A DNA stretch of 64,000 nt from a virus. This document shows positions 53,180 to 64,000 of this stretch, piece after piece (position 1 is the stretch's first letter; each line of letters starts with the position of its first letter). The position numbers and the translations under genes were made by a program. A model generated the notes under the pieces. That model did no database searches and was not told the DNA's origin. It was given only the letters and a program-made list of their open reading frames with translations. The stretch is taken from the IMG/VR virus record IMGVR_UViG_3300032304_001768, positions 1 to 64,000 of that record. One strand, given 5' to 3'.

Positions 53180-53847
53180 ATGATTTCGTCAACCAATCCA
53201 TATTGAAGACACTCTTCAGCAGTAAGCCAAATATCTTTCTTCAATAGTTCATCAATCTTCTTAACAGGAAGCTTTGTGTGTTCCTTGTAGAAGCTTTTCA
53301 GAATGCTCATGAGATTGGTTACATTGTATATTTCATCTTCCAACTCACTAAATTTGCCATACATGCCACCTGAGATTTGGTGAATTAGAATGTGGGAATA
53401 TTTTCCGATAACTCTGTGGTCTCCCATTAGAGCTATGAAAGTCGCTGCACTAGCAGCATAGCCATCTACATAAGTATAGACTTTTGATTTCATAGTTCTA
53501 ATTGTATCAACAATTGCAAATGCTGGATAAACTTCTCCTCCATCACTTGCAATGTGCAAATGACAAACAGGTTCAAAATCATCACCCAATGTATTCTTGA
53601 TATTTTGAAGCTTTACATCAAGATCCAGCAATGTTCTGTTGAGATCCAATGCTGCTGTTTGATCGATGCTTCCGTAAAAAAATATCTTATTGTCCAATAC
53701 TCTGATAGATCCTTGGGGATTCCAAGTTTCATTTGATGTCGGAGCTTGCATATTCAGATAAATGGGAACTTGTTGTAAAACTTGTTCGTCTTCTTCGCTT
53801 GCTTTATATTTCCATCGTTTCATAAGAATGTTTTTGTTAGGCTTCAC
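53176..53847 (-). CDS. ClpP-like serine protease
   Basis: 'I.SDGGEV', catalytic Ser in 'AASAA', His in 'LIHQ', 'D.WL.AEEC..YGLVDEI'; start uncertain. Confidence 0.9.
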   Translation of the reverse strand: MKPNKNILMKRWKYKASEEDEQVLQQVPIYLNMQAPTSNETWNPQGSIRVLDNKIFFYGSIDQTAALDLNRTLLDLDVKLQNIKNTLGDDFEPVCHLHIASDGGEVYPAFAIVDTIRTMKSKVYTYVDGYAASAATFIALMGDHRVIGKYSHILIHQISGGMYGKFSELEDEIYNVTNLMSILKSFYKEHTKLPVKKIDELLKKDIWLTAEECLQYGLVDEII

Positions 53848-56656
53848 ACGTTGTGCAATTCAAGATATTTCTGGCCAACTCTTGAGCAGGGTTGCTGCTT
53901 CTTTGATAGTAGAAGCTCTTGATTCCATTTTCCCATCCAAAAATCATAAGTTCATTAACTTCTTTTGGTTTGGTATTTGGTGGAATCATAAGATTCAGAC
54001 TTTGGCCTTGATCTATGAATTTCTGGCGTTGAATTGCTTGAATGACAATTTCCTTTTGGGAAATTTCTCCGAATGTTTTGAACACATCCTTTTCCTCTTG
54101 TGTAAGGAATTTAAGATGCTGAACACTTCCACCACGAACAAGAATACTCTTCCAAGTAACTTGATTGTTTTTATCTTTGGATTCGAGCAGTTTGATTAGA
54201 TAAGGATTCTTAAAGGTGAATTTACCTTTAGCAAGATCCTTTGTGTAATAGTTGCTATTCAAAGGTTCAATACTTGGAGAGACCTGACCAAGAATAAATG
54301 AGCTTGATGTTGTAGGAGCAACTGCGAGAGTTGTTACATTTCTACGACATTGATCGCTACCAATATAAATTGGAGCGCATCCAAACAACTTAGCAAGTTC
54401 TTCGGTTGCCTTGTCAGCTTTCTCTCGGATCTTACTCCAAACAGACATATTCAGAAGTTTAGCATCCATTGATTCAAATGCAATCATTTTATCTTGAAGA
54501 AGGCTATGCCATCCCAAAACACCAACACCCAATGCGCGTTGATTAACTGCAAAGTTTCTTGGAGCTTCCATGAATTTAACATTGGTGGTTTTAGTAATGA
54601 ATTCTGACATAACAGCATCCAAGAAGTAAACCAAAGTCTCAACAGCGTCTGTATCTTTCCACTCTTCCCATTTTTCAAGATTTAAAGATGAAAGATCACA
54701 AACAAACGATTCATTTTCATCATTTGAAAGGAAAATCTCAGAACAAAGATTTGAATTGTGAATTTTTCTTCCTGTTGCTTTATAAATTTCAGGAGCCTGA
54801 TCGTTGGCATTGTCGCTGAAGAAAATGTAAGGATAACCGCTTTCAAAACGTTTTTGAATAACCTTACCCCAAATCTTACGCTTTGTCGCGTCTCCTGCAA
54901 TCATGGAAGACATCCAATCATTGGAAACACAAACGCCAATACTCATATCCTGAATTTCATGACCATCAGAACGTATCTTTAGGAATTCTTCAATATCAGG
55001 ATGATCAATTGGTAGATAACCTGCGAATGATCCACGACGAACATTACCTTGCGATACGACGTTCATAAGCTTGTTATAAAGCTCCATGAAGTGAACTGCG
55101 CCAGTAGATGACCCACCTGATGATATAGACGCTCCACGACCTCGTAGTGCGCCAAAATAGCCACTTGTGCCGCCTCCAGCCTTGGTCATTTGACCAACCT
55201 CTGCCAAAGTGTTTAGAATGCCTTCCATGGTATCTGGAATGTAAGATCCAAAACAATTATGCAATACTACACCAGATGCGCTAAAAGAATGATCTTCATC
55301 TACTGTGAAGTCATAAACATCCTCAACCTTTTCAGTAAGATGCAATTCTTTAATTTTGGCATATCGCAACCCATCGTAAAATTTAATAGCTGAATTGCTG
55401 TTATTTTTTGAATACTTGTCATTATATTTTCTAAAATTGCATGTATACGTGTGTGGTGTGGTTGATAAAACAGAAGATTTTTCTTGCATTTGTAATGACA
55501 TTCCCAGACCTAGCTTCAAACCGATTTGATATATTTGAAGAAGCATTTTAGGATTTGCCACCGTTATTCTACAATCTTGGCACTTAGTTATAGTCCCATC
55601 ACCAGCCAACAAGCCATCTAAGAAATATTTTAATTTCTGTTTGGGTAATTCCATAATCCATTCTGGAATCAATTTATTCTTACATCCATCACCAAATGAA
55701 TGAAACAAATTTCCAATTATTTGAGAATTAACATCGGTAGTTAGCCAAGTATAGATAACATCACCTCTTTTAGTAGAGCCTGTATAAGTATTACCATTTA
55801 AATTCAATTTAGACTTCATAATATTCAACCATTTATGTGTCAATTCAGCTTCGTCTTTATCATTTGTTGTTATTCGTATCCCGACAGGTTCTTTTTTGTT
55901 ATTTTTGGAAACGCTACCTTCAGCAAACCAAAGTCCAAACGCCCACGCCAAATCTTCATCAATTTCTATAAATTCGAATGGGTTTGAAAAATACTCTACT
56001 GTTTTTCCATTTTTGGTAGTTTTTGATTTGGTATTTTTTGAAATTTCTTTGTAAATCTTTCCATCGATAACATGTGGGTTGTAACTATTACAAAACGATT
56101 TCATATCTATTGTGTAGTCCTTCTCAACACTCTCAATATCACCGTTGATCGCAACGAGATGCAGATCAGGATTAAGTTCGTCGGTTCGCACCCATCCCAC
56201 GTTAGTTAAAACTAAATGATTGCCTGTTAGATAAAGAGGAGTCATTCTATTAGAAACTTTTAATTTAAAAATATTATTTTTATTTTTAGTTGGTATAATA
56301 TCAATAACTTTTCTATAACGTCCCCGGTGGGTGAGAACTTCGTCTCCAATTTCTATATCCTTTGCCATTTTACCTCCACCGCTCTTTGTATTAATCCAAG
56401 TGTCACCAACGACACAACTAATAGGCAATCCACGAAGTCTTCCAAAGTTTGAAATTATAGGACTTGAAATTGAATAAAAACCTCTACTTAAGTAGTCTTC
56501 AAACTTATTCGCAAATCCATCAATTCCCAAATAACGCTCTGCTGTTTTTGCTATATCTTTAAACCTTTCTTCTGGTGTTTCACCTTCTAAAAGATATCCT
56601 CTTTCCAGAAATTTTCTGGAATCCTCATTAAGCCAATAGTATTTTGTGTTTATCAT
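53837..56656 (-). CDS. nrdA: Class I ribonucleotide reductase large subunit, intein-containing, no ATP-cone
   Basis: 'PISC', 'GGGTS', 'QGNVRRGS', 'SNLCSEI', 'APTTSSS', 'DQGQSLNL', 'YY', C-terminal CxxC. Confidence 0.96.
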   Translation of the reverse strand: MINTKYYWLNEDSRKFLERGYLLEGETPEERFKDIAKTAERYLGIDGFANKFEDYLSRGFYSISSPIISNFGRLRGLPISCVVGDTWINTKSGGGKMAKDIEIGDEVLTHRGRYRKVIDIIPTKNKNNIFKLKVSNRMTPLYLTGNHLVLTNVGWVRTDELNPDLHLVAINGDIESVEKDYTIDMKSFCNSYNPHVIDGKIYKEISKNTKSKTTKNGKTVEYFSNPFEFIEIDEDLAWAFGLWFAEGSVSKNNKKEPVGIRITTNDKDEAELTHKWLNIMKSKLNLNGNTYTGSTKRGDVIYTWLTTDVNSQIIGNLFHSFGDGCKNKLIPEWIMELPKQKLKYFLDGLLAGDGTITKCQDCRITVANPKMLLQIYQIGLKLGLGMSLQMQEKSSVLSTTPHTYTCNFRKYNDKYSKNNSNSAIKFYDGLRYAKIKELHLTEKVEDVYDFTVDEDHSFSASGVVLHNCFGSYIPDTMEGILNTLAEVGQMTKAGGGTSGYFGALRGRGASISSGGSSTGAVHFMELYNKLMNVVSQGNVRRGSFAGYLPIDHPDIEEFLKIRSDGHEIQDMSIGVCVSNDWMSSMIAGDATKRKIWGKVIQKRFESGYPYIFFSDNANDQAPEIYKATGRKIHNSNLCSEIFLSNDENESFVCDLSSLNLEKWEEWKDTDAVETLVYFLDAVMSEFITKTTNVKFMEAPRNFAVNQRALGVGVLGWHSLLQDKMIAFESMDAKLLNMSVWSKIREKADKATEELAKLFGCAPIYIGSDQCRRNVTTLAVAPTTSSSFILGQVSPSIEPLNSNYYTKDLAKGKFTFKNPYLIKLLESKDKNNQVTWKSILVRGGSVQHLKFLTQEEKDVFKTFGEISQKEIVIQAIQRQKFIDQGQSLNLMIPPNTKPKEVNELMIFGWENGIKSFYYQRSSNPAQELARNILNCTTCEA
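55256..56416 (-). mobile_element. Intein with LAGLIDADG homing endonuclease in nrdA (387 aa)
   Basis: N-terminal 'CVVGDT', block B 'TGNH', 'GLWFAEG' and 'GLLAGDG' motifs, C-terminal 'VYDFTV...HN' followed by Cys. Confidence 0.95.
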
Positions 56657-56669
56657 ATTCATTAAATTT

Positions 56670-57098
56670 TTAGTTTGGAATAGATTCCAATAATTTTTTA
56701 GCGACTTCAATCGCTTCATCTTCCGAAACTGTCGTGTCGAATGGACCATCTGGGTCGTTTATAATTTGCTCCAACCCTTCAGAAGCAATATCATAACTGT
56801 TCAAATAATCAACTCCAAAATATTCGGATAAAGCTTTATTTGTCATTAAACCATTGACATCCAAATATTTCCCACTTGGATGTTCTACGACAACGTGAGA
56901 ATATTCTATATCATTATCGCCATCATCTTCATCATACCATCCCTCACCATCAGGATCTGATAAGATATAAATTCGCCATCCAGTTAACTTGTTCAATGCC
57001 AATGCTAAAATTGCACAATTCCCTTGCATATATGAATCAATATCAAATTGATTGTTTAAATTTTCATACAATGCCCTTAATTTATTATAATCGTTCAT
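56670..57098 (-). CDS. Hypothetical protein with possible papain/transglutaminase-like Cys-His-Asp triad
   Basis: 'GNCAILA', 'SHVVV', 'YLDVNG'. Confidence 0.65.
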   Translation of the reverse strand: MNDYNKLRALYENLNNQFDIDSYMQGNCAILALALNKLTGWRIYILSDPDGEGWYDEDDGDNDIEYSHVVVEHPSGKYLDVNGLMTNKALSEYFGVDYLNSYDIASEGLEQIINDPDGPFDTTVSEDEAIEVAKKLLESIPN

Positions 57099-61969: not shown

Positions 61970-62065
61970 GCTTACATCACTCGCCGCTGGCAACGCCGAC
62001 AGCGACTGATACCAACCCGAAAGCGAGGTTGGTAAGATTGCTCTTTGAAATTTCAAAAATTAAAT

Positions 62066-62140
62066 GGTCTCATCGTCTATCGGTTAGGACAAAAGATTTT
62101 CAATCTTTAGAGGCGGGTTCGATTCCCGCTGGGACTACCA
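62066..62140 (+). tRNA. tRNA-Glu(TTC)
   Basis: Full cloverleaf; AAAGA-TTTTCAA-TCTTT anticodon arm; encoded CCA. Confidence 0.92.
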
Positions 62141-62153
62141 TTTAAAAATTAAT

Positions 62154-62187
62154 AGCGGATAGAACAAGATGGTTAGTTGTCAGTTTC
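62154..62187 (+). pseudogene. Isolated 5' tRNA fragment
   Basis: AGCGGATAGAACAAGATGGTTAGTTGTCAGTTTC resembles acceptor, D-arm and anticodon 5' strand; no 3' half found. Confidence 0.45.
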
Positions 62188-62212
62188 TGCTGCTAGTGTA
62201 AATAACATCAGA

Positions 62213-62755
62213 ATGAAATACACAATTTATAAGATTACTAATAATCTCAATGGTAAGTTTTACATCGGTAAACACCAAACAACAAATCCAAATGATACGT
62301 ATTTTGGATCAGGAAAAGCGATTATCAATGCTATTAAATTTTACGGTAAGTCAAACTTCACGAAAGAGGTGTTGTTCATTTTCGATTCTGAGTTTGAGAT
62401 GAACGCTAAAGAAAAAGAACTCATTACTGAGGAATTTGTGGCAATGCCAGATACTTACAATCTTGGAATTGGTGGTGAAGGTGGTGCGCATTTTAAAGGT
62501 AGACGACATTCTTTAAAAACTAAAGAGAAAATTTCTGTATCGAATACAGGAAAGTCTCTTTCAGAAGAAAGTAGGCAAAAATCTATTGGGAGAAAACATT
62601 CAATAATCACAAAACAAAAAATTTCACTTGCTGCAAAATCAAGGAAAGTTTCTGACGAAACAAAACAGAAGATTTCCAAAGCTTTGAAAGGTAGAAAAGT
62701 CTCAACAGAGACTAAAGAAAAAATTTCCAATACGATGAAAGCTCGTAATAAATAA
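62213..62755 (+). CDS. GIY-YIG homing endonuclease with NUMOD3 repeats (SegB-like position)
   Basis: 'TIYKITN...FYIGKH', 'YFGSG', 'YN...GG', 'GRKHS..TK.KIS'. Confidence 0.92.
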   Translation: MKYTIYKITNNLNGKFYIGKHQTTNPNDTYFGSGKAIINAIKFYGKSNFTKEVLFIFDSEFEMNAKEKELITEEFVAMPDTYNLGIGGEGGAHFKGRRHSLKTKEKISVSNTGKSLSEESRQKSIGRKHSIITKQKISLAAKSRKVSDETKQKISKALKGRKVSTETKEKISNTMKARNK

Positions 62756-62761
62756 TTCAAA

Positions 62762-62855
62762 AGCAGGGTAGAGAAGATCGGTCGATCTCGCTTGGCTCAT
62801 AACCAAGAGGCTACTCAAACGCGCATAAGTGGTTCGAATCCCGCCCCTGCAACCA
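62762..62855 (+). tRNA. tRNA-Met(CAT), initiator-like, with atypical variable/T region
   Basis: 1:72 mismatch; CTTGG-CTCATAA-CCAAG; TTCGAAT; ACCA end; about 15 extra nt before the T loop. Confidence 0.75.
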
Positions 62856-62860
62856 TTCAA

Positions 62861-63000
62861 GTGCTGTAGAATAGAGATACTTCTAAAAGGAAAATCGGTA
62901 TCGAAAGATGTGTGGGTTCGAATCCCACTCAGGCTCAATAAGTGGTCTGATGGCGGAATGGTAGACGCGCTGATAATAAAAAGCCTCTGTTCGTTTGTTG
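62861..63000 (+). ncRNA. Circularly permuted tRNA-like RNA (YrlA/Y RNA-like or permuted tRNA-Leu)
   Basis: 3' half (62894-62935) precedes 5' half (62944-62974); acceptor and anticodon stems pair across the halves; flanks also pair. Confidence 0.8.
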
Positions 63001-63010
63001 CCTTGTTAAT

Positions 63011-63085
63011 GGGAGAGTAGCCAAGAGGTAAGGCAAGAATTTCATAAGTTCTGTATCGCAGGTTCGAATCCTGCCTCTCCTACCA
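63011..63085 (+). tRNA. tRNA with CAT anticodon (Met elongator or Ile2)
   Basis: Canonical cloverleaf; AGAAT-TTCATAA-GTTCT; CCA. Confidence 0.9.
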
Positions 63086-63089
63086 TTAA

Positions 63090-63162
63090 TGCTTGTTGGA
63101 TCTTCTTCATGTCGCGATAAGAAGGTGCCTACCATCGGTGTGAACCCGAAAGCAAGCAACCA
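63090..63162 (+). ncRNA. CCA-ended tRNA-like RNA without a D-arm
   Basis: TGCTTGT/GCAAGCA acceptor plus ACCA; long hairpin; TCGG-TGTGAAC-CCGA T-like arm. Confidence 0.6.
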
Positions 63163-63182
63163 TTTCTTGATAACGTTTCTAT

Positions 63183-63267
63183 GGGTAGATGGGTGAACGG
63201 TTAAACCAGCTGATTGTAAATCAGCCCCTTTATTGGATTGTAGGTTCGAATCCTACTCTGCCCACCA
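63183..63267 (+). tRNA. tRNA-Tyr(GTA)
   Basis: Cloverleaf with long variable region; GCTGA-TTGTAAA-TCAGC; CCA. Confidence 0.93.
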
Positions 63268-63270
63268 AAT

Positions 63271-63361
63271 AGTTGCATGGAACTAAACAATAAGGCCAAT
63301 GGTAGATCTGGACTCTAATATAGATCCGTGTTCTTTGTAGGTTCGAGTCCTACTGTGACTA
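63271..63361 (+). ncRNA. Atypical tRNA-like RNA with CT-CTA-AT loop
   Basis: AGTTGCA/TGTGACT acceptor; perfect T arm GTAGG-TTCGAGT-CCTAC; GATCTG/TAGATC stem; no encoded CCA. Confidence 0.55.
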
Positions 63362-63447
63362 TGATATTGTCGCGTTGATCGGTGACTGATTTGGAATAAG
63401 CAGGAGTAAGTCCAAAGAGAATGATGATAAATCCTGCACAATTTATT

Positions 63448-63539
63448 GGAAGTATGGCAGAGCGGTCTATTGCACTATCTTGGAAAGATAGAGGTCGCCA
63501 AATGGTGGCCCATAGGTTCAAATCCTATTACTTCCGCCA
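63448..63539 (+). tRNA. tRNA-Ser(GGA)
   Basis: Cloverleaf, long variable arm, G discriminator, CCA. Confidence 0.95.
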
Positions 63540-63547
63540 GTTTTAAT

Positions 63548-63625
63548 GGGGCTGTATCGGAACTGCCTTCTAAGCAGTGGCACCGTAAAGGATCGATGCA
63601 GGTTCGAATCCTGCCAGCCCTGCCA
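63548..63625 (+). tRNA. tRNA-Arg(TCT), non-canonical (no in-place D-arm)
   Basis: GGGGCTG/CAGCCCT acceptor; ACTGC-CTTCTAA-GCAGT; perfect T arm; GCCA end. Confidence 0.8.
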
Positions 63626-63789
63626 TTTTTCTCGTTTGGGCGCGTAACGACAAGATACGTTGGAGATGGCTCATGCCAGAGTCTCTGCAAGAGAGAATAA
63701 TCAATAGAATAGGCGCGGGCATTAAGCGCAATAAAAATAATTATTAATCAAAGCAGCGTAGCAAAGCTTGTTAACGAGAATCATTTTAT

Positions 63790-63881
63790 GGGTGTGTGGT
63801 CGAGTCTGGTTTATGGCGTCGCACTTGAAATGCGAAGGTGGTGAAAGCTGCCCGTGGGTTCAAATCCTACCGCACCCGCCA
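63790..63881 (+). tRNA. tRNA-Ser(TGA)
   Basis: Cloverleaf; TCGCA-CTTGAAA-TGCGA; long variable arm; GCCA. Confidence 0.95.
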
Positions 63882-63889
63882 AATTTAAT

Positions 63890-63966
63890 CCCTGTCTGGT
63901 GTAAGTGGTCTGCACGATTCGCTGAAGACGAGTAGGATACCTGATCGAAACGGGTGACAGGGGCCA
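63890..63966 (+). tRNA. tRNA-Phe(GAA), atypical T-loop
   Basis: CCCTGTC/GACAGGG acceptor; ATTCG-CTGAAGA-CGAGT; T-loop ATCGAAA; CCA. Confidence 0.85.
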
Positions 63967-63973
63967 TTTTAAT

Positions 63974-64000
63974 TGGGGTGAAGTCTAATGGTTTGACACC
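63974..64000 (+). tRNA. 5' part of a further tRNA, cut by the window edge
   Basis: TGGGGTGAAGTCTAATGGTTTGACA looks like an acceptor strand plus D-arm (GTC/GAC). Confidence 0.55.

What the first reader, a model, noticed from the sequence alone, without database searches (positions are those of the whole stretch)
62861..63000. Circularly permuted tRNA-like gene in a phage tRNA array
Seen: the 3' half comes first: ATCGG (62894-98), variable arm TATC-GAAA-GATG, T arm GTGGG-TTCGAAT-CCCAC, acceptor strand TCAGGCT (62929-35). After an 8-nt linker comes the 5' half: GGTCTGA (62944-50), Leu-type D arm GCG-GAATGGTAGA-CGC, CTGAT (62970-74). GGTCTGA/TCAGGCT pair 7/7 and CTGAT/ATCGG pair 5/5 (counting G-U). 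The outer flanks GAATAGAG/CTCTGTTC pair 8/8. No CCA is encoded and there is no clean anticodon loop (AATAAAA follows the 5' half). Known: permuted tRNAs occur in some algae and archaea, and bacterial YrlA Y RNAs have this same T-acceptor-D order on a terminal stem. Inference: a Leu-derived Y-like RNA, a decoy lacking a cleavable anticodon, or a permuted tRNA needing ligation. No Ro60 gene is in this window.
Basis: partly seen in the sequence, partly recalled or inferred. Interest (0 to 1): 0.88.

Follow-up and report, generated by a model that had tools for sequence, protein, structure and literature searches.

The report
Phage Y RNA with tRNA-like module
The back-to-front tRNA look-alike is real, but it is a Y RNA, a known kind of small RNA that partners the ring protein Ro60, sitting between tRNA genes of a freshwater phage that has deleted its own Ro60 gene.

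Summary
The order T arm, closed acceptor hairpin, D arm is not a permuted tRNA gene awaiting ligation. It is the tRNA-like module of a YrlA-class Y RNA spanning window 62856-63007 (+).

I built a covariance model from 21 RNAs lying beside phage Ro60 (TROVE) genes, leaving out this element and its orthologue. The model matches this element full length at 60.0 bits, E 5e-13. It also finds 102 same-strand copies in 33 of 35 phage Ro60 loci. The family's two non-tRNA stems covary.

Rfam's YrlA model gives only 15.9 bits here against a threshold of 69. It gives 42.3 bits (E 1e-6) on a family member in Caulobacter phage CcrColossus, which links the family to YrlA.

A ~95%-identical sister phage has Ro60 plus five more Y RNAs in the same tRNA array. 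This contig lost that 2,494-bp cassette between two CTTGAGT repeats and keeps only Ro60's last nine codons.

So this is a new member of a known kind. It has a Leu-type class II module and is orphaned in the assembled part of this genome. Earlier notes of this scan report similar phage Ro60/Y-RNA arrays on other DNA.

The parts
62856..63007 (+). Whole Y RNA as aligned full length (positions 1-132) to family model R2
   Evidence: 60.0 bits, E 5.1e-13. It lies directly after the CCA of the tRNA-like gene 62762-62855 and 3 nt before tRNA-Met 63011-63085.
62858..62864 (+). Outer stem a, 5' strand CAAG(U)GC, with U62862 bulged
   Evidence: Pairs with 63000-63005. Pairing probability is 0.89-0.99. 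The family helix covaries in 5 of 6 pairs.
62863..62869 (+). 5' handle motif GCUGUAG, the presumed Ro60-binding strand
   Evidence: Aligns to the family consensus GUGGuGUAG. Compare GNCGAAN0-1G of YrlA in Chen 2014 section 6; 5 of 7 positions agree.
62869..62876 (+). Stem b, 5' strand GAAUAGAG
   Evidence: 8 of 8 pairs with 62985-92, probability 0.93-1.0. The family helix covaries in 7 of 8 pairs.
62877..62883 (+). Conserved AUACUUC motif; the family has (U/A/C)UACUUC
   Evidence: It corresponds to the conserved YUAY of YrlA (Chen 2014).
62884..62893 (+). Loop, with a possible 4-bp hairpin UUCU-AAAA-GGAA that reaches back into the motif (62881-62892)
   Evidence: MFE fold. G62890 differs in the sister phage.
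62894..62898 (+). AUCGG, 5' strand of the helix that stands in for the anticodon stem
   Evidence: 5 of 5 pairs with CUGAU 62970-74, but probability only about 0.2. C62896 is U in the sister phage, turning G-C into G-U.
62899..62910 (+). Class II type variable arm UAUC-GAAA-GAUG
   Evidence: Two substitutions occur in the sister phage: one keeps a pair, the other breaks one.
62912..62928 (+). T arm GUGGG-UUCGAAU-CCCAC
62929..62950 (+). Acceptor-like hairpin: 7 bp (two G-U) closed by the 8-nt loop CAAUAAGU, with no CCA
62953..62968 (+). Leu-type D arm GCG-GAAUGGUAGA-CGC, preceded by U8-G9
   Evidence: 62951-62972 is 100% identical over 22 nt to tRNA-Leu genes in locus L006.
62970..62974 (+). 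CUGAU, 3' strand of the anticodon-stem analogue
62975..62984 (+). A-rich internal loop AAUAAAAAGC
   Evidence: An A-rich run at this place is a family feature: model consensus caAaAAaaa and the alignment rows.
62985..62992 (+). Stem b, 3' strand CUCUGUUC
62992..63002 (+). 3' handle motif CGUUUGUUGCC; the family has CG-N-YUUGUUCC
63000..63005 (+). Outer stem a, 3' strand GCCUUG

Best explanation
Window 62856-63007 (+) encodes a YrlA-class Y RNA.

Anatomy. A two-part terminal helix, the 'handle', carries the motifs GCUGUAG (5') and CGUUUGUUGCC (3'). It is followed by AUACUUC and then a tRNA-like module read in the order variable arm, T arm, closed acceptor hairpin, D arm. That order belongs to the Y RNA design; it is not a broken or permuted tRNA gene.

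Shown. The anatomy is shown. So is membership of a covarying RNA family that sits on the same strand beside phage Ro60 genes. A near-identical sister phage carries Ro60 plus five more such RNAs in the same tRNA array. This contig deleted that cassette.

Inferred. The RNA is co-transcribed with the tRNA array, and its ends are cut out by the enzymes that mature the flanking tRNAs. The handle's 5' strand binds a Ro60 ring. The tRNA-shaped module recruits or shields against a host partner such as PNPase, as described for bacterial and Thermus-phage Ro60/Y RNA particles. In this genome the partner would have to be a host Rsr or a copy in the unassembled 61%. Otherwise the RNA is a recent orphan.
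For: Family membership. Model R2 was built from 21 elements next to TROVE genes, with this element and its orthologue excluded. It matches 62856-63007 full length at 60.0 bits, E 5.1e-13. The next best hit in the 82-kb contig is 29.8 bits and covers only part of the model, at tandem tRNAs.

Linkage to Ro60. R2 gives 104 hits at E<=1e-5 in 37 sources. Of these, 102 lie in 33 of 35 TROVE loci, all on the TROVE strand: 81 within 1 kb upstream and none on the opposite strand.

Covariation. On the MAFFT alignment A3, 89.3% of cells are paired, against 35-50% when partners are slid. Handle helix a has changes on both sides in 5 of 6 pairs, helix b in 7 of 8, and 0 of 500 shuffles reach the observed values.

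Sister phage. L008 has a 436-aa TROVE protein (PF05731, E 1.8e-20) and five further R2 hits upstream of it.

Deletion. This contig has a 2,494-bp deletion between CTTGAGT repeats and retains LEFERTKDR*.

Link to the published class. R2 finds 8 elements upstream of the CcrColossus Ro60 gene. Rfam YrlA matches one of them full length at 42.3 bits, E 1.2e-6.

Literature. Chen 2014 (sections 5, 6 and 8 read) describes YrlA with a 5' motif, YUAY, and V, T, AS and D stem-loops. The NAR 2025 phiLo paper (passages) shows a phage Ro60 binding phage Y-like RNAs and host PNPase.
Against: Rfam RF02553 scores only 15.9 bits (E 1.6) here against a gathering score of 69. None of the 13 TROVE loci scanned reaches it either.

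The 5' motif differs from GNCGAAN0-1G at 2 of 7 positions.

No Ro60 gene is present in the 82-kb contig.

There is no expression evidence. RNA-library contigs over the element are thin and include foreign tRNA T-arm matches. No promoter or terminator of its own was found.

Folding energy is not exceptional.

The comparison with the sister phage cannot show constraint. The element has 4 differences in 152 nt, but the neighbouring homing-endonuclease remnant has 1 in 244.
Confidence: 0.87

Rival explanations
1. It is a Y RNA by descent but a functionless relic here. After the Ro60 cassette was deleted the RNA has no partner and simply has not yet decayed.
For: Ro60 and five Y RNAs were removed by a 2,494-bp deletion, leaving nine codons. 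No TROVE is present in the contig. The surrounding 574 bases differ from the sister phage by only about 1%, so little time may have passed.
Against: The contig is only 39% of the estimated genome, so a second Ro60 is possible. Hosts can encode Rsr. All four differences from the sister copy fall in the variable region and none in the handle, T, acceptor or D parts. The related phage record G001 also keeps Y RNAs about 10 kb from its Ro60.
Confidence: 0.2
2. It works without Ro60 as an anticodon-less tRNA mimic. For example, it could act as a decoy or competitor for host enzymes that bind the tRNA elbow, possibly after RNase P opens the 8-nt acceptor loop.
For: The halves form a complete class II cloverleaf when swapped. 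[quoted passage not shown] It is retained in a Ro60-deleted contig.
Against: No data of any kind bear on processing or partners. The handle motifs that define Ro60-linked RNAs are fully intact. The discriminator position is C and no CCA is encoded.
Confidence: 0.08
3. It is a genuine circularly permuted tRNA gene whose transcript is circularised or ligated and then opened at the acceptor end to give a decoding tRNA.
For: The 3' half precedes the 5' half. ARAGORN calls a tRNA once they are swapped. The outer flanks pair.
Against: Neither 7-nt candidate loop (AAUAAAA, AAGGAAA) has U33. The ARAGORN names merely follow whichever triplet is central. The A-rich run is a family feature, not an anticodon loop. 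The flanks are the conserved Ro60-type handle. No RtcB is in the contig. Nine of nine tRNAs printed from the array encode CCA, and this element does not.
Confidence: 0.03
4. It is a chance juxtaposition of two decayed tRNA fragments left by rearrangements in a fluid tRNA array.
For: The array is full of indels and odd tRNA-like genes.
Against: The non-tRNA parts (both handle helices and three motifs) match the family model. The element is kept in the sister phage and in an independent 2017 freshwater metagenome contig. A positional orthologue with the same handle exists in G001.
Confidence: 0.02

Closest known systems
YrlA (Y RNA-like A) of Salmonella, Mycobacterium and mycobacteriophages; Rfam RF02553; Chen et al. 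2014 (PMC4201824); structure in Wang et al. 2018 (bioRxiv 10.1101/312249)
   Same: Terminal Ro60-binding stem with a 5' motif, a YUAY-like motif, and then V, T, closed acceptor (AS) and D stem-loops in that order. It has no anticodon loop and no free CCA. It is encoded on the same strand as Ro60 in the sister phage.
   Different: It scores 15.9 bits against the gathering score of 69. The motif is GCUGUAG instead of GNCGAAN0-1G. The D arm is a 3-bp Leu type rather than the near-invariant YrlA D stem. It has a class II variable arm. It lies 6.2 kb from Ro60 in the sister phage, beyond the 4-kb rule, and has no Ro60 in its own contig. It is wedged between tRNA genes.
Phage Ro60/Y-like RNA pairs: Thermus phage phiLo Yrl1/Yrl2 (PMC12135203) and Caulobacter phage CcrColossus
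   Same: A phage-encoded Ro60 with several Y-like RNA genes just upstream. Model R2 finds 8 such elements upstream of the CcrColossus gene.
   Different: Those RNAs sit directly beside Ro60. This one is dispersed in the tRNA array, and its genome has lost the gene. I did not compare the phiLo RNAs with R2.
Circularly permuted tRNA genes of red and green algae and some archaea (recalled, no call)
   Same: The 3' half is encoded before the 5' half with a short linker, and CCA is not encoded.
   Different: Those regenerate a normal anticodon loop and are matured through a circular intermediate. Here no usable anticodon loop exists and the termini form a Ro60-type handle.
Deinococcus radiodurans Yrn1
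   Same: A Ro60-bound Y RNA with a T-arm-like stem-loop that tethers Ro60 to PNPase (Chen 2014, passages).
   Different: Per Chen 2014, Yrn1 has a different orientation of the T and D elements and an anticodon-arm-like rather than an acceptor-like central hairpin.
Dimeric-tRNA origin model for YrlA (Sim and Wolin 2018, as quoted in Wang et al. 2018 Discussion)
   Same: The T side looks like the 3' half of one tRNA and the D side like the 5' half of another, inside a tRNA array.
   Different: In this element the acceptor hairpin is made of the two tRNA acceptor strands themselves, 7 bp, not of spacer.

Membership tests
YrlA-type Y RNA (Rfam RF02553 / Chen et al. 2014) | Reaches Rfam's gathering score (69 bits) | tested here: not met
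   15.9 bits, E 1.6, model positions 1-114, at 62885-62995. Not listed at gathering threshold.
YrlA-type Y RNA (Rfam RF02553 / Chen et al. 2014) | GNCGAAN0-1G motif near the 5' end, in the terminal stem | tested here: inconclusive
   GCUGUAG at 62863-69 agrees at 5 of 7 positions (motif). The Ro60-linked phage family itself has GG(C/U)GUAG.
YrlA-type Y RNA (Rfam RF02553 / Chen et al. 2014) | Conserved YUAY at the start of the V region | tested here: inconclusive
   AUAC at 62877-80, where the first base is A and not a pyrimidine. Most family members have UUAC.
YrlA-type Y RNA (Rfam RF02553 / Chen et al. 2014) | V, T, acceptor-like (AS) and D stem-loops in this 5'-to-3' order, with a tRNA-type T loop and D-loop GG | tested here: met
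   T loop UUCGAAU, D loop GAAUGGUAGA, U8 present.
YrlA-type Y RNA (Rfam RF02553 / Chen et al. 2014) | Encoded within about 4 kb of a Ro60/TROVE gene on the same strand | tested here: not met
   No TROVE in the 82-kb contig. In the sister phage the orthologue is 6.2 kb upstream on the same strand. A nine-codon Ro60 remnant lies at contig 70284-70313.
YrlA-type Y RNA (Rfam RF02553 / Chen et al. 2014) | Bound by Ro60/Rsr | not testable with these tools
   Needs immunoprecipitation or a gel-shift assay.
Phage Ro60-linked Y RNA family (model R2, defined here) | Significant full-length match to a model built without this element | tested here: met
   60.0 bits, E 5.1e-13, positions 1-132 of 132. Only one non-standard pair, in the D stem.
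Phage Ro60-linked Y RNA family (model R2, defined here) | The family is tied to Ro60 and to published YrlA | tested here: met
   102 same-strand hits in 33 of 35 TROVE loci. In CcrColossus, R2 and RF02553 (42.3 bits, E 1.2e-6) hit the same element.
Circularly permuted tRNA gene | The 3' half lies upstream of the 5' half, and together they form a cloverleaf | tested here: met
   ARAGORN calls an 81-nt class II tRNA after swapping the halves, and none in native order.
Circularly permuted tRNA gene | Joining the ends regenerates a standard 7-nt anticodon loop (U33, purine 37) | tested here: not met
   The candidate loops AAUAAAA (62975-81) and AAGGAAA (62887-93) both have A at position 33.
Circularly permuted tRNA gene | The termini form a bulge-helix-bulge site for a splicing endonuclease (definition recalled, no call) | tested here: not met
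   In the folds the termini are 17 and 10 unpaired bases followed by an 8-bp and a 6-bp helix. No 4-bp helix flanked by 3-nt bulges is present.
Circularly permuted tRNA gene | An RNA ligase such as RtcB is available | tested here: inconclusive
   PF01139 is absent from the contig, but the contig is 39% complete and the host is unknown.

The most novel reading that the evidence does not exclude
This is a young Y RNA caught in the making. A conserved Ro60 handle has received a complete class II, tRNA-Leu-like cloverleaf made from the 3' half of one tRNA gene and the 5' half of another in the array. The positional orthologue in a related phage has the same handle with no tRNA module at all. Because the RNA is kept intact in a phage that deleted Ro60, the module may also act on its own. 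RNase P could open the 8-nt acceptor loop, as in M. smegmatis YrlA, giving an anticodon-less two-piece tRNA mimic that competes for host tRNA-binding or tRNA-cleaving factors.
Probability: 0.12. Interest if true: 0.7.

Novelty: new member of a known kind. Interest (0 to 1): 0.38.

Why it matters
The finding turns an apparent oddity, a permuted tRNA in a phage, into an identified part: a Y RNA.

Three side results could interest people who work on Ro60.

First, the curated Rfam model misses a large covarying family of phage Y RNAs. These often occur in arrays of up to nine beside Ro60, in long forms (with a tRNA module) and short forms (handle only).

Second, some of these RNAs sit precisely between tRNA genes, so tRNA-maturing enzymes would define their ends.

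Third, nature supplies a matched pair of phages with and without Ro60. It also supplies an orthologous pair of Y RNAs with and without a tRNA module. Both pairs bear on the published idea that YrlA arose from dimeric tRNA transcripts.

Tried and rejected
Megablast of 62000-64000 against named phages found nothing.

The pattern TCAGGCT-gap-GGTCTGATGG gave 67 viral stretches. Only L003 is the element. I did not read the other 66 one by one; my scanner flagged two of them (L038, L069) with weak, coding-looking matches.

Model R1, built from the element and its near-identical orthologue, was too specific. Beyond those two it gave one useful lead, L008:17424-17527 at 37 bits, and nothing else in the own contig.

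Folding energy z-scores were -1.37 and -1.38 on the + strand and -0.67 on the - strand. These are not significant.

Expression could not be shown. Three metatranscriptome runs were laid as contigs. Depth over 62804-63004 was 0.3-8.6, and loose ends at 62911/62912 show that foreign tRNA T-arm matches contribute. No listed RNA piece spans the element (41 pieces were not shown). RNA libraries can also hold DNA. This counts as no evidence either way.

The promoter and terminator scan showed no more sites than shuffles did, and none at the element.

Comparison with the sister phage cannot show selection. The whole stretch 62512-63085 differs by about 1%, while spacers further on differ by 14-17%.

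I considered that AAUAAAA after CUGAU is a decayed Leu(UAA) anticodon loop, since ARAGORN names the swapped form Leu-UAA. I rejected it as evidence because an A-rich run at that place is common to the family.

I could not settle whether the region after AUACUUC forms a separate hairpin or the ATCGG/CTGAT helix. Family members differ here, so I left this region unpaired in R2.

The supplementary tables of Chen 2014, which list the 22 phages, were not available. I therefore cannot say whether relatives of this phage were already listed there. In my three literature searches I saw no paper describing Y RNAs wedged between phage tRNA genes or the loss of Ro60 from such a phage. That is not an exhaustive search.

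Full report
**Observation.** On the + strand the order is:
- ATCGG, 62894-98
- a small arm TATC-GAAA-GATG
- a canonical T arm, 62912-28
- TCAGGCT, 62929-35
- eight bases of linker
- GGTCTGA, 62944-50
- U-G
- a 3-bp D arm with loop GAATGGTAGA
- CTGAT, 62970-74

GAATAGAG (62869-76) pairs with CTCTGTTC (62985-92). ARAGORN finds seven tRNAs in the window and Rfam finds seven tRNA matches. Neither reports anything here. The element fills the gap between a 94-nt tRNA-Met-like gene ending at 62855 and a tRNA-Met starting at 63011. When a script swapped the two halves, ARAGORN called an 81-nt class II tRNA; in native order it called none. So the permuted cloverleaf is real.

Folding energy alone does not set the element apart: z = -1.38, with 19 of 200 shuffles folding as well. 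The minimum-energy fold of 62856-63007 recovers two nested outer helices and the variable, T, acceptor and D arms. Every pair of the outer helices and of the T, acceptor and D arms has probability 0.64-1.0; the short variable arm has 0.37-0.64.

**Setting.** The window is the first 64 kb of an 82,326-base IMG/VR virus contig estimated to be 39% complete. Its tRNA array runs from 62066 to 72624, with 28 ARAGORN calls. The nine genes I printed all encode CCA, unlike this element. A GIY-YIG/NUMOD3 homing-endonuclease gene lies just upstream at 62177-62755. Public runs that hold parts of the stretch are mostly labelled freshwater metagenomes.

**The lead.** An exact-pattern scan of viral contigs found the same element in one other contig, IMGVR_UViG_3300027712_000098. 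That contig is about 95% identical over the region and differs from the element at four positions. A first model built from these two copies (R1) gave a 37-bit hit further along the sister contig, at L008:17424-17527. This second back-to-front tRNA look-alike had the same motif, AGAUACUUCU, after its outer stem. Reading that region showed several such elements followed by a 436-aa ORF. The ORF matches the TROVE domain of Ro60 (PF05731, E 1.8e-20, 74 bits against a cut-off of 23) and, below cut-off, the Ro60 vWA domain.

**The family.** Searching viral contigs with this Ro60 gave 36 loci. A simple scanner for 'T arm, then a 7-nt strand that pairs after a short loop, then a D arm' found such modules next to many of them. 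Their flanks share a common design:
- a helix with a bulged U
- GG(C/U)GUAG
- a 7-8-bp helix
- (U/A/C)UACUUC
- the tRNA-like module
- an A-rich run
- the return strand of the helix
- CG-N-YUUGUUCC and the closing strand

I aligned 21 of these with MAFFT, leaving out the studied element and its orthologue, and built model R2 with 30 base pairs.

On that sequence-based alignment 89.3% of cells pair, against 35-50% when partners are slid by 1-3 columns. None of 500 shuffles reaches the observed values. The two handle helices were not part of the scanner's criteria. They show changes on both sides in 5 of 6 and 7 of 8 pairs.

R2 matches window 62856-63007 over its full length at 60.0 bits, E 5.1e-13. 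The next best match in the whole contig is 29.8 bits and covers only part of the model, at tandem tRNAs.

Over 37 sources R2 gives 104 hits at E<=1e-5. Of these, 102 lie in 33 of the 35 TROVE loci, every one on the TROVE strand:
- 81 within 1 kb upstream
- 15 at 1-5 kb upstream
- one at more than 5 kb, the sister copy of this element, 6.2 kb upstream
- 5 just downstream

The two loci without hits are L111 and L119, and L119 has no upstream sequence. Twenty-one of the hits are the training sequences, and at least two hits in L125 are partial tandem-tRNA matches. By length, 44 hits are 110 nt or longer and carry a tRNA module. The other 58 are shorter, and many of these are about 65-70 nt and consist of the handle only.

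**Relation to the known class.** Chen et al. 2014 (PMC4201824; abstract, sections 5 and 6, and passages of 8 and 10 read) defined YrlA RNAs by these features:
- a 5' GNCGAAN0-1G motif thought to contact Ro60
- a conserved YUAY at the start of the V region
- V, T, AS (acceptor-like) and D stem-loops
- a position within 4 kb of Ro60 on the same strand

They reported YrlA in 254 bacteria and 22 bacteriophages. The element has that architecture, with GCUGUAG and AUAC in place of the two motifs.

Rfam's YrlA model aligns it end to end but at only 15.9 bits (E 1.6) against a gathering score of 69. The cassette elements of the sister phage score 24.9 and 21.1 bits. None of 13 TROVE loci gives a YrlA hit at the gathering threshold.

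A link comes from Caulobacter phage CcrColossus. A 2025 paper names this phage among those with Ro60 and Y-like RNAs (PMC12135203, passages). R2 finds eight elements upstream of its Ro60 gene (E down to 1e-22). Rfam YrlA matches one of the same elements full length at 42.3 bits, E 1.2e-6.

I therefore file the element as a divergent member of the YrlA class. This rests on homology through the phage family, not on Rfam's threshold.

**The missing Ro60.** Neither the sister phage's Ro60 protein nor the TROVE profile finds anything in the own contig. The TROVE profile does ring in control genomes. At contig 70284-70290 the own sequence passes from what is L008:17247-53 directly to L008:19741-47. 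Both places in the sister phage read CTTGAGT. What follows in the own contig is the last nine codons and stop of Ro60, LEFERTKDR*.

So this lineage deleted 2,494 bp between 7-nt repeats. The deletion removed five Y RNAs, two small ORFs and nearly all of Ro60. The studied Y RNA, 7.3 kb upstream of the scar, was left behind. Whether another Ro60 lies in the unassembled 61%, or the host supplies Rsr, cannot be told. RtcB is also absent from the contig.

**Evolution of the module.** A more distant relative, record G001, has a Ro60 82% identical to the sister phage's. It has Y RNAs next to Ro60 and two more about 10 kb away in its tRNA array. One of these sits exactly between tRNA-Thr and tRNA-Ile. 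The other is the positional orthologue of the studied element, lying between a Met-like tRNA and tRNA-Met. It has the same handle variant (GUGCUGU.AG ... UUGUUGCC) but is only 79 nt long and has no tRNA module.

The module here is class II. Its D-arm half is 100% identical over 22 nt to genuine tRNA-Leu genes in an unrelated phage locus. Its T-arm half is 85% identical over 32 nt to the 3' part of the odd long-armed tRNA at 63974-64061.

This fits the model quoted by Wang et al. 2018 (bioRxiv 10.1101/312249, Discussion passages), in which YrlA arose from dimeric tRNA transcripts. I cannot say whether the module was gained here or lost in G001.

**Mechanism.** The following are shown: the anatomy, the family, the linkage to Ro60 and the deletion.

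The following are inferred from the literature read. The handle's 5' strand binds the Ro60 ring. The tRNA-shaped module engages a host factor such as PNPase or protects the RNA.

Two further points are inferred from position. The RNA is transcribed with the array, since it has no promoter-like or terminator-like site of its own. RNase P and the 3' maturation of its tRNA neighbours then free it.

[quoted passage not shown] Whether that happens here is untested.

**Evidence against, and limits.** There is no expression or binding evidence. Rfam's threshold is not met. The motif deviates from the published one. Linkage to Ro60 fails in this contig. The sister-phage comparison cannot show selection, because the whole left flank is about 99% identical.

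**Earlier notes of this scan.** After I had reached this reading, look-ups showed that other agents had reported phage Ro60-like genes with arrays of handle-bearing tRNA-mimic RNAs on other genomes. Nothing was noted for this element itself. One note pointed me to the Wang et al. preprint.

**Verdict.** The Y-RNA reading is supported and the permuted-tRNA reading is not. This is a new, somewhat aberrant member of a known kind. Interest is moderate (0.38), mainly for the natural pairs with and without Ro60 and with and without the tRNA module, and for the blind spot in Rfam's model.

Noticed in passing
window 62762-62855: A 94-nt tRNA-Met(CAU)-like gene with about 20 extra bases before a weakened T stem and an A-A pair at position 1-72. 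Rfam tRNA gives only 32.5 bits.
   Followed up: no
window 62074-62511: A 438-base segment holding most of tRNA-Glu and the catalytic N-terminal half of the GIY-YIG homing endonuclease is absent from the sister phage. It is also absent from a 2017 freshwater metagenome contig, which joins 62073 directly to 62512.
   Followed up: partly
window 63974-64000, continuing to contig 64061: ARAGORN calls an 88-nt tRNA-Gln(UUG) with a long variable arm, which is unusual for Gln. Its 3' part is 85% identical to the T-side half of the Y RNA.
   Followed up: no
contig 70284-70313 (outside the window): Scar of the Ro60 cassette deletion: the repeat CTTGAGT followed by the last nine codons and stop of Ro60.
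   Followed up: yes
L105:3072-3347; L100:4699-5092; L120:4404-4694; L148:6767-7024: Phage contigs with Ro60 also carry other stable-RNA genes at Rfam's gathering scores. These are a bacterial RNase P RNA (126.8 bits), a tmRNA (113.2 bits) and permuted tmRNAs (130.3 and 57.2 bits).
   Followed up: no
L147:2155-2222 (Caulobacter phage CcrColossus, NC_019406.1 109217-109284): The record's annotated 68-nt 'tRNA-Gln' lies inside an R2 hit (2151-2315, 84.5 bits). It is probably the tRNA-like module of a Y RNA rather than a tRNA.
   Followed up: partly
G001:C1:18163-18300 (locus L136): A 138-nt Y RNA (92.5 bits) sits exactly between tRNA-Thr and tRNA-Ile in a related phage. In the studied contig these two tRNAs are 10 nt apart with no Y RNA. 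Y RNAs therefore come and go within the arrays.
   Followed up: partly
window 53837-56749 (-): A 970-aa ORF whose translation reads like a ribonucleotide reductase large subunit interrupted by an intein-like insert. The label comes from reading the translation; no family search was run.
   Followed up: no
L004:3170-3290: In a 372-kb viral contig, a tRNA-Leu-like 5' half with the same D arm is followed by sequence that is not a normal anticodon arm. It may be an interrupted tRNA.
   Followed up: no
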